A stretch of DNA of 64,000 bases from Escherichia coli (lineage in GTDB: Bacteria > Pseudomonadota > Gammaproteobacteria > Enterobacterales > Enterobacteriaceae), in NCBI RefSeq assembly GCF_011045215.1, contig NZ_CP049201.1; one strand, 5' to 3'. The notes beneath the pieces are model-generated. The model saw only the letters and a program-made list of their open reading frames with translations. It was not told the origin of the DNA and made no database searches. The position numbers were made by a program, and so were the translations under genes. Below, one piece after another: positions 63,131 through 63,329 of this stretch (positions are counted from its first letter, which is position 1; every line of letters starts with the position of its first letter).

Positions 63131-63329
63131 AATCGTTACTCCTATTAACGGTTTGGTTAGAAGCCCGGTTAGTGTTAGCGCACTGCCGGGTTTCGTCGTT
63201 TCAATTGCTGAATTGCATGTATCAGCCCTTGTGGTATTCAGATTACATTTTGGTGAATACCATTTCAAGTCTTTTTTGGTATTCACTTTTGTATTACACT
63301 GCATCCCGTTATTAATCGGAGGTGCAAAC
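63131..63329. promoter_or_regulatory. Divergent promoter/operator region of the element
   Basis: Intergenic between leftward and rightward genes; inverted repeats GGTATTCA ... GTGAATACC ... GGTATTCAC. Confidence 0.55.

What the first reader, a model, noticed from the sequence alone, without database searches (positions are those of the whole stretch)
63131..63329. Divergent switch region with inverted GGTATTCA / TGAATACC repeats
The 200 bp between the leftward operon and the rightward putative repressor gene contains GGTATTCA, GTGAATACC and GGTATTCAC within 55 bp, consistent with operator half-sites for the satellite master repressor.
Basis: seen in the sequence. Interest (0 to 1): 0.45.

Follow-up and report, generated by a model that had tools for sequence, protein, structure and literature searches.

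The report
Satellite switch: RHH operators plus antisense RNA
The 200-bp gap is the control region of a phage-satellite island, where repeated 10-bp words in two back-to-back promoters are very probably the binding sites of the small DNA-binding protein encoded next door, and a likely antisense RNA covers the start of the opposite operon.

Summary
TGGTATTCA occurs three times (63232-63240 +, 63254-63262 -, 63277-63285 +). Two degenerate copies complete a five-site array with 22-23 bp spacing.

The rightward gene (63330-63629) encodes a YlcI/YnfO-family protein whose predicted dimer has a ribbon-helix-helix fold. In about 130 related satellites the promoter hexamers and site positions stay fixed. 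The repeated word changes only when the seven residues of the protein's beta-strand change: at least 16 pairings, three of them confirmed as predictions in other genera. The sites lie in the spacer and at the start point of a leftward promoter (TTGAAA-N17-TAATCT), which drives the Icd-like/primase operon. They take mirror positions in the repressor's own promoter. The protein is therefore most likely an autoregulated repressor of the satellite's replication operon. "Master" status and the inducer remain untested.

The left third of the interval (63125-63205, + strand) is a different element. It is a conserved two-hairpin RNA, antisense to the ribosome-binding site and start codon of the Icd-like gene. 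It resembles SymR and FinP in design, and the island also encodes a ProQ/FinO-like protein.

I found no description of this module. The founding paper states that a global repressor of Gram-negative PICIs is unclear.

The parts
62765..63130 (-). First gene of the leftward operon (121 aa, Icd-like/Ash-like). It is followed without gaps by four small genes and a P4-family primase (60148-61896).
   Evidence: NCBIfam phage_ICD_like 80.6 bits against a cut-off of 25. PHROGs 6196/1743 match. ORF list. RefSeq homologue is annotated 'host cell division inhibitor Icd-like protein'.
63112..63117 (+). -10-like hexamer TATGCT inside the Icd-like ORF; candidate promoter of the antisense RNA.
   Evidence: A TATGCT/TATGAT/TATAAT/TATCAT/TACTAT hexamer, often preceded by TGn, lies 5-11 nt before the complement of the start codon in all variants of the left gene. 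This is an inference; no transcript data were examined.
63125..63205 (+). Predicted ~75-nt cis-antisense RNA: stem-loop 1 at 63125-63158, stem-loop 2 at 63160-63194, tail GUCGUUUC. It is complementary to the Shine-Dalgarno sequence (AGGAG, 63139-63143) and the ATG (63128-63130) of the Icd-like gene.
   Evidence: + strand MFE -33.8 kcal/mol, z -5.55; - strand MFE -19.3, z -1.84. Consensus fold has 21 pairs, 4 of them compensatory. 97.2% of cells are paired against 89.2% in shuffles (0/500), and 55 of 399 cells are G-U, which would be mismatches on the - strand. Sub-threshold SymR match of 37 bits against a gathering score of 61, E 2.3e-5. A 49-nt core is 100% identical in hundreds of E. coli genomes.
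63209..63217 (-). Operator site 0 (TGAATTGCA, 2 mismatches to the word).
   Evidence: In register at -116.5 from the ATG; the same position is occupied in other types.
63232..63241 (+). Operator site 1 (TGGTATTCAG). It overlaps the last base of the -10 and the predicted start point of the leftward promoter.
63240..63245 (-). -10 of the leftward promoter P_L (TAATCT on the - strand).
   Evidence: TTGACn-N17-TAAnnT is conserved in every operator type although the spacer sequence (site 2) differs. This was read from the alignments; coordinates.
63253..63262 (-). Operator site 2 (GTGAATACCA), filling the spacer of P_L next to its -35.
63263..63268 (-). -35 of P_L (TTGAAA on the - strand). The T-run at 63271-63277 is an A-tract upstream of it and is also the only -35 candidate for P_R.
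   Evidence: The 'CAA' anchor lies 64 nt before the ATG in all seven loci where the scan placed it, and the TCAAG box aligns across most types. Coordinates.
63277..63286 (+). Operator site 3 (TGGTATTCAC), in the spacer of the rightward promoter.
63295..63300 (+). -10 of the rightward promoter P_R (TACACT, aligned with TATACT/TATATT of other types).
   Evidence: Alignments; coordinates. The -35 is weak.
63300..63308 (-). Operator site 4, degenerate in this type (TGCATCCCG, 3 mismatches). It is intact in the related types L019 and L088.
63330..63629 (+). Gene of the 99-aa YlcI/YnfO-family ribbon-helix-helix protein: strand 10-18 including QQLNARF, helices 19-28 and 35-53, and a long C-terminal helix 59-98. 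Its Shine-Dalgarno sequence GGAGGT is at 63318-63323.

Best explanation
The interval is the bidirectional control region of a Gram-negative PICI-type phage satellite inserted in comM. Two sigma-70 promoters sit back to back. P_L (TTGAAA-N17-TAATCT, - strand) drives the Icd-like, small-ORF and primase operon. P_R (-10 TACACT, + strand) drives the gene of a 99-aa ribbon-helix-helix protein. Five copies of a 9-10 bp word (three perfect, two degenerate) are spaced 22-23 bp apart in alternating orientation. They occupy the spacer and the start point of each promoter. Dimers of the RHH protein, probably joined through the long C-terminal helix, read the word with their N-terminal beta-ribbon. Binding shuts both promoters, which keeps the replication operon silent and limits the protein's own synthesis. 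A second layer acts after transcription. A ~75-nt RNA made from the + strand, with its promoter inside the Icd-like ORF, pairs with the leader, Shine-Dalgarno sequence and AUG of the P_L transcript and blocks translation of the first gene, possibly helped by the island's ProQ/FinO-like protein. What the data show directly are the repeats, their register, the covariation with the protein, the predicted fold, the RNA structure with its covariation, and the strand asymmetry. Repression, oligomeric state, the RNA's existence and the inducing signal are inferred.
Against: No binding, transcript or reporter data exist. The simple promoter scan found nothing in the intergenic region at its thresholds. 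P_L has only 3 of 6 matches in its -10 here, and P_R lacks a recognisable -35. Sequence-level links to RHH families are weak: Pfam PSK_trans_fac E 0.035, hhalign to Arc E 0.005 with probability 7%, and no PDB sequence hit. The monomer AF2 model drew residues 8-16 as a helix. The RNA has no canonical U-tract and scores below the SymR gathering threshold; other hairpin variants do not hit SymR at all. Site 4 is degenerate in this type, so autoregulation may be weak.
Confidence: 0.75

Rival explanations
1. The RHH protein only autoregulates a small accessory operon (RHH plus the 59-aa and 60-aa ORFs, for example as an antitoxin-like module) and does not control the satellite's replication operon.
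For: Many RHH proteins are autoregulating antitoxins (general knowledge). Two small ORFs follow the gene here and in L002. The strongest sites, 2 and 3, flank both -35 regions, so own-promoter control is certain if the protein binds.
Against: The gene stands alone in many relatives, being followed directly by a convergent Ant or AlpA gene. Sites 1 and 2 sit on the core of P_L in every type. The module is kept divergent from the replication operon in nearly all contigs of this lineage.
Confidence: 0.1
2. The protein binds these sites but acts as an activator or dual regulator: it represses itself while activating P_L, or the reverse.
For: P_R has a poor -35, which often marks activator-dependent promoters. 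Some RHH proteins are dual regulators: by my recollection, P22 Mnt represses P_ant and stimulates its own promoter.
Against: Sites inside the spacer and over the start point are classical repressing positions. The arrangement is a mirror image for both promoters.
Confidence: 0.08
3. The hairpin region (63125-63205) acts on the - strand as part of the P_L leader, as a processed immunity RNA of the P4 CI / P1 C4 kind or a stability or attenuation element, and no + strand RNA is made.
For: It lies in the 5' leader of an Icd-like gene, where P1 and P4 place their C4/CI RNAs (general knowledge; PMC10111431 notes C4/isrK hits in Gram-negative PICIs). L071 has true isrK and C4 RNAs further down the same operon. 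The + strand has no canonical terminator U-tract.
Against: No C4 or isrK match here even at E up to 10. The - strand folds poorly (z -1.84 against -5.55; mean MFE -24.3 against -34.5 over 37 variants). 14% of paired cells are G-U on the + strand and would be mismatches on the - strand. A -10-like hexamer is conserved at a fixed distance on the + strand.
Confidence: 0.2
4. The repeats are bound by another factor (AlpA, the Ant/Bro protein, the Icd-like protein or a host protein), or are replication iterons.
For: PHROGs label relatives of the Icd-like protein 'transcriptional repressor'. AlpA is the known activator of Gram-negative PICIs (PMC6092414).
Against: The word follows the RHH strand, not the left gene, which is shuffled relative to the type. 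The Ant gene is absent from several loci that keep the array. The sites are locked to promoter elements.
Confidence: 0.03

Closest known systems
P22 immI repressors Arc and Mnt (ribbon-helix-helix)
   Different: No significant sequence relationship (hhalign probability 7%). The protein belongs to the YlcI/YnfO family. There are five sites 22-23 bp apart instead of one 21-bp operator with subsites about 11 bp apart. It lies in a satellite rather than a phage: tblastn found no copy in 50,697 phage records.
SaPI Stl / PICI Rpr master repressors
   Same: The gene is transcribed divergently from the replication operon of a phage-inducible island and lies between the integrase side and the replication side. 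The predicted role is to keep the island silent.
   Different: Stl/Rpr are helix-turn-helix proteins of Gram-positive islands, with derepression by helper proteins demonstrated. Here the fold is RHH, the inducer is unknown, and the published view of Gram-negative PICIs is unidirectional transcription with AlpA as activator and no known repressor (PMC6092414).
F-plasmid TraY / TraM and pSM19035 omega (RHH proteins that bind arrays of sites)
   Different: Their functions differ (relaxosome accessory, plasmid copy and partition control). Omega uses contiguous 7-bp heptads, whereas this region uses 9-10 bp words two helical turns apart.
SymR/SymE and FinP/FinO cis-antisense control
   Same: [quoted passage not shown] It covers the ribosome-binding site and AUG. 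A FinO/ProQ-family protein is encoded by the same element, as in FinOP (my knowledge).
   Different: It scores below the SymR gathering score (37 against 61 bits), and only this hairpin variant scores at all. The target is an Icd-like gene, not SymE or TraJ. The RNA has not been observed. The FinO-like protein is below the curated FinO and ProQ cut-offs.
P1 immI (c4-icd-ant) and P4 CI immunity RNAs
   Same: An RNA regulator acts on the translation-initiation region of an icd-type first gene of an early operon. True isrK/C4 RNAs occur in a related satellite (L071).
   Different: C4 and CI are cut from the same transcript as their target and act in trans on the same strand. Here the structure is on the opposite strand, and no C4/isrK model matches.

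Membership tests
YlcI/YnfO family (NCBIfam NF041551) | Score above the curated cut-off of the N-terminal domain model | tested here: met
   60.4 bits against a cut-off of 30, residues 9-50. Homologues are named YlcI/YnfO family protein by NCBI.
Ribbon-helix-helix (MetJ/Arc/CopG) superfamily | N-terminal strand that pairs with its twin in a dimer, followed by two helices | tested here: met
Ribbon-helix-helix (MetJ/Arc/CopG) superfamily | G-x-S/T/N turn at the start of helix 2 | tested here: met
   G32-E33-T34 in the window protein and GES/GET in most homologues (some have D or E in place of the G); E33 is invariant.
Ribbon-helix-helix (MetJ/Arc/CopG) superfamily | Significant profile match to a curated RHH family | tested here: inconclusive
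   Pfam PSK_trans_fac E 0.035. hhalign to Arc E 0.005 with probability 7%. No PDB sequence hit to an RHH protein.
Cognate repressor-operator pair | DNA-contacting residues and operator sequence change together | tested here: met
   10 strand heptads and 10 words in 88 loci with no exception. Three out-of-sample predictions were met. Further pairs appeared.
Cognate repressor-operator pair | Physical binding of the protein to the sites | not testable with these tools
   Needs EMSA or footprinting.
PICI master repressor (Stl/Rpr type) | Gene divergent from the replication operon, with its sites on that operon's promoter | tested here: met
   Gene order. Sites 1 and 2 lie on the P_L core.
PICI master repressor (Stl/Rpr type) | Loss of the repressor, or a helper-phage protein, derepresses the island | not testable with these tools
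   No genetic data. The literature in reach reports no repressor for Gram-negative PICIs.
PICI master repressor (Stl/Rpr type) | Homology to Stl/Rpr (helix-turn-helix repressors) | tested here: not met
   The fold is RHH, so the resemblance is functional at most.
Gram-negative PICI satellite | int and alpA, then a Bro/Ant zone, a primase replication zone and a PerC/late zone, in about 12 kb with no lysis or tail genes | tested here: met
   The window holds P4-family primase, ProQ/FinO-like and PerC-like genes. The near-identical L002 and the homologue L001 add Ant, AlpA and integrase on the right. The right end lies outside the window. Helper dependence was not tested.
SymR RNA (Rfam RF01809) | Score at or above the gathering threshold | tested here: not met
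   37.0 bits against 61; 33.6-35.9 bits in L055 and L071; no hit for other hairpin variants.
C4 / isrK immunity RNAs (RF01695, RF01394) | Covariance-model match | tested here: not met
   No match in the window at the gathering threshold, nor in 62900-63500 at E up to 10. The models do work on L071.
Rho-independent terminator | GC-rich hairpin followed by a U-run | tested here: inconclusive
   A strong hairpin is present, but the tail UUUCGUCGUUUC fails the scan's U-run rule.

The most novel reading that the evidence does not exclude
The YlcI/YnfO-type RHH protein is the missing master repressor of a large lineage of Gram-negative PICIs. It has diversified into at least 16 mutually orthogonal strand/operator specificities, a heteroimmunity system for satellites. 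It works together with a FinOP-like antisense RNA and chaperone pair that gates translation of the first replication-operon gene. The natural series would also give a readable recognition code for RHH beta-strands.
Probability: 0.35. Interest if true: 0.75.

Novelty: new variant of a known kind. Interest (0 to 1): 0.58.

Why it matters
Gram-positive PICIs are understood through their master repressor Stl. For Gram-negative PICIs the founding paper says a global repressor is unclear and that transcription is unidirectional (PMC6092414). I found no later paper describing a repressor.

A divergent RHH repressor module is present in most contigs of this lineage and in Escherichia, Klebsiella, Citrobacter, Cronobacter, Yersinia, Serratia and Enterobacter. 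It would give that field a concrete handle on induction and on cross-talk between co-resident satellites.

The family also offers a ready-made natural set of near-identical proteins with different 7-residue strands and matching 9-10 bp words. That set is useful for studying RHH-DNA recognition and as orthogonal repressors.

The antisense RNA, if real, adds a post-transcriptional lock on an Icd-type (cell-division-inhibitor-like) gene.

Tried and rejected
- Simple promoter and terminator scan of 62900-63700: nothing in the intergenic region at its thresholds. The promoters were then found by comparison.
- Rfam at the gathering threshold: no family in the interval. C4/isrK were rejected.
- tblastn of the protein against 50,697 phage records: no match.
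- PDB sequence searches with the protein and with the family profile: no RHH hit, only a weak helix-hairpin-helix-like match to Hef.
- AF2 monomer model and its Foldseek search: uninformative. A tandem-fused model was needed.
- The five other GGTATTCA copies at 40885-46895: unrelated flanks, dismissed.
- Search for further operator clusters in the island: none.
- Attempt to inspect the model island EcCICFT073 by fetching CFT073 1.40-1.45 Mb: that stretch is a lambdoid prophage, not the island. I did not pursue it, so whether EcCICFT073 has this module is unknown.
- Same-genome pairs of satellites as a heteroimmunity test: three informative pairs all differ in type, but that is too few to mean anything, and one apparent same-type pair was a duplicate contig.
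- Literature searches for YlcI/YnfO/DUF3950, for RHH with PICI, for SymR with prophage/Icd, and for FinO/ProQ with satellites: no description of this module.

Full report
**Observation**

TGGTATTCA lies at 63232-63240 (+), 63254-63262 (-) and 63277-63285 (+), and sites 2 and 3 are perfect 10-mers.

- The 8-mer is expected 1.58 times in the window and occurs 8 times. The five copies elsewhere (40885-46895) have unrelated flanks.
- None of 20,000 shuffles of the intergenic sequence had three copies of any 9-mer within 60 bp.

**Context**

- The window carries rrnC-type rRNA genes, tRNA-Asp and tRNA-Trp, then hdfR-, yifE- and comM-like ORFs.
- The comM ORF (53598-55001) lacks its usual N-terminus. 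From about 55 kb to the end of the window the genes are those of a Gram-negative PICI-type satellite.
- All of the following are on the - strand: PerC-like (58131-58418), ProQ/FinO-like (58415-58957), a P4-family primase (60148-61896), four small ORFs and an Icd-like gene (62765-63130).
- The 99-aa gene at 63330-63629 is the first of a short + strand operon.
- In a near-identical contig (L002) and in E. coli ZF8-1 (L001), an Ant-type anti-repressor, AlpA and the integrase follow, all on the - strand.
- About a quarter of complete E. coli genomes (1256 of 5426) hold a relative of this 1-kb stretch.

**The protein**

- It meets the curated YlcI/YnfO N-terminal model at 60.4 bits against a cut-off of 30.
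- Sequence links to solved structures or Pfam RHH families are weak. A monomer AlphaFold model was uninformative.
- A model of two copies joined by a flexible linker gave strand 10-18, helix 19-28 and helix 35-53 in both halves at pLDDT about 80, plus a long helix 59-98.
- The G-x-T/S turn is present. The strand residues are the most variable part of an otherwise conserved family.

**Comparative test of the operator idea**

I collected 80 loci through the protein, seven more through exact protein look-ups in other genera, and 70 through the ProQ/FinO-like gene.

- All loci with this protein share one layout.
  - The complement of TTGAC lies 64 nt before the ATG.
  - A TAAnnT lies 17 nt beyond it on the - strand.
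  - A TAtnnT lies about 30 nt before the ATG on the + strand.
  - Repeated words are centred at about -116, -93.5, -71.5, -48.5 and -26.
- The promoter boxes stay fixed while the words change. The words change only with the seven strand residues:

| Strand heptad | Operator word |
|---|---|
| QQLNARF | TGGTATTCAC |
| QQINARV | GCGATTCAC |
| QQIGARF | GCGGTTCAC |
| QSLTARI | TGTAAGAC |
| KQISIRI | TGTGATTCA |
| QLTTVRV | GTGTTTCAC |
| QMTTIRV | GAGATACAC / GATATACAC |
| QMKNIRF, QIKNVRI | GGTGTG |
| QALAARV | TGTTTTCAC / TGTTGCACA |
| QMTTVRI | GTGAAATAC |
| QTVAARV | GTGTTGAACAC |
| QALKARV | GTGGCCCAC |
| QKLQARA | GGATTCCA |
| KRIDARV | GTGTCGGACAC |

- Proteins that are 95-99% identical outside the strand have unrelated words. 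Proteins only 53% identical outside the strand but sharing it share the word.
- Klebsiella, Cronobacter and Citrobacter koseri loci, chosen for their strand before their DNA was read, kept the predicted words.
- The N-terminus of the left gene is shuffled relative to the type.
- In some relatives a short Arc-like RHH with its own palindromes occupies the same place.

I take this as strong evidence that the repeats are the recognition sites of the adjacent protein.

**Anatomy in the window**

- P_L is TTGAAA (63268-63263), N17, TAATCT (63245-63240).
- Site 2 fills the P_L spacer. Site 1 covers the last base of the -10 and the predicted start near 63233.
- P_R has its -10 TACACT at 63295-63300, site 3 in its spacer, and the degenerate site 4 just downstream.
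- Site 0 (63209-63217) lies in the P_L leader.
- The spacing of two helical turns puts all sites on one face. The C-terminal helix is a plausible bridge between dimers.
- Many types have a GGTG-N5-CACC frame, so each copy is probably a full dimer site rather than a half-site. This last point is inference.

**The left third of the interval**

- A 49-nt core (63154-63202) is 100% identical in hundreds of E. coli genomes whose flanks differ.
- On the + strand, 63125-63205 folds into two hairpins at -33.8 kcal/mol (z -5.55). The - strand gives -19.3 (z -1.84). Over 37 variants the means are -34.5 and -24.3.
- The consensus fold has 21 pairs, 4 of them with compensatory changes. 97.2% of cells are paired against 89.2% in shuffles (0 of 500), and slid controls reach 50% at most.
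- 55 of 399 paired cells are G-U, which would be mismatches on the other strand.
- The RNA would start at the complement of the Icd-like start codon and cover its Shine-Dalgarno sequence.
- A -10-like hexamer, often with TGn, sits at a fixed distance inside every variant of the left ORF.
- Rfam gives a sub-threshold SymR match (37 against 61 bits), and only for this hairpin variant. C4 and isrK do not match here, although they do match in L071.
- The design matches that described for SymR, a 77-nt RNA opposite the 5' end of its target with its promoter inside the ORF (PMC1891008).
- With a ProQ/FinO-like gene in the island, the design also recalls FinP/FinO. 56 of 70 contigs carrying that gene have the hairpin motif.
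- I put this part at about 0.55. There is no transcript evidence and no canonical U-tract.

**Comparison with the literature**

- Fillol-Salom et al. [quoted passage not shown]
- Later papers in reach describe AlpA, PerC, Rpp, Bro-zone proteins and C4/isrK RNAs, but not this module.
- I could not check whether the model island EcCICFT073 carries it.

**Verdict**

This is a real, structured control region. The element is a new variant of a familiar design (an RHH autorepressor on divergent promoters) in a setting where no repressor was known, coupled to a probable antisense RNA.

How the repressor is lifted is unknown. Candidates are a helper protein, the island's Ant protein, or convergent AlpA-driven transcription through the RHH gene.

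Noticed in passing
window 58415-58957 (-) and 58131-58418 (-): The satellite encodes a ProQ/FinO-family protein (FinO 63.8 bits and ProQ 58.1 bits, both below the curated cut-offs) and a PerC-like protein. 56 of 70 viral contigs carrying the ProQ/FinO-like gene also have the hairpin motif, which suggests an RNA and chaperone pair.
   Followed up: partly
L071:1692-2058: A related satellite has a second SymR-like copy (1986-2058, +) next to genuine isrK (1801-1877, -) and C4 (1692-1779, -) RNAs inside the leftward operon. Protein-based and RNA-based immunity modules therefore co-exist in one element.
   Followed up: no
L019:5844-5914, L021:6141-6208, L033:6089-6156: The Rfam int-alpA RNA motif (RF02996) scores above its gathering threshold near the alpA side of three related satellites.
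   Followed up: no
window 53598-55001 (-) and about 55000: The comM (yifB)-like ORF starts with a foreign N-terminus, so the island appears to be inserted in the 5' end of comM. The left junction and attachment repeats were not mapped.
   Followed up: no
L097, L115, L119, L140, L146, L155, L158 (about 330 nt following the GGTTAGA hairpin motif, reverse-complement orientation): At the same position other satellites carry a short (57-65 aa) Arc-like RHH gene with its own palindromes (GGTAATTACC, TGTAATTACA, GGTGGTCACC, GGTGTACACC). Some share the C-terminal ...RRGIEPKG tail with YlcI-type proteins, which suggests module exchange.
   Followed up: partly
window 63330-63629, residues 45-86 of the product: The family profile gives a weak match (E 0.009) to the helix-hairpin-helix domain of Hef (1x2i) around the invariant I73-G74. 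The C-terminal helix might therefore also touch DNA rather than only oligomerise.
   Followed up: no
window 59424-59771 (-) and 60148-61896 (-): The 582-aa primase ORF and a separate 115-aa ORF match the N-terminal and C-terminal parts of one PHROG (phrog_2850). They may be a split or frameshifted gene, or a two-gene arrangement.
   Followed up: no
window 40885-46895: Five more GGTATTCA copies lie within 6 kb upstream of the rRNA operon. Their flanks are unrelated to the operator and they look like coincidence.
   Followed up: yes
L007/L051, L026/L142, L060/L146: Three pairs of satellites from the same genome carry different strand/operator types, as heteroimmunity would predict, but the sample is far too small. 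L053 and L054 are a 100% identical duplicate.
   Followed up: partly
window 63699-63878 (+) and from 63937 (+): Two small ORFs (59 and about 60 aa, no informative family match) follow the RHH gene here and in L002 but are absent from many relatives. They are variable cargo of the rightward operon.
   Followed up: partly
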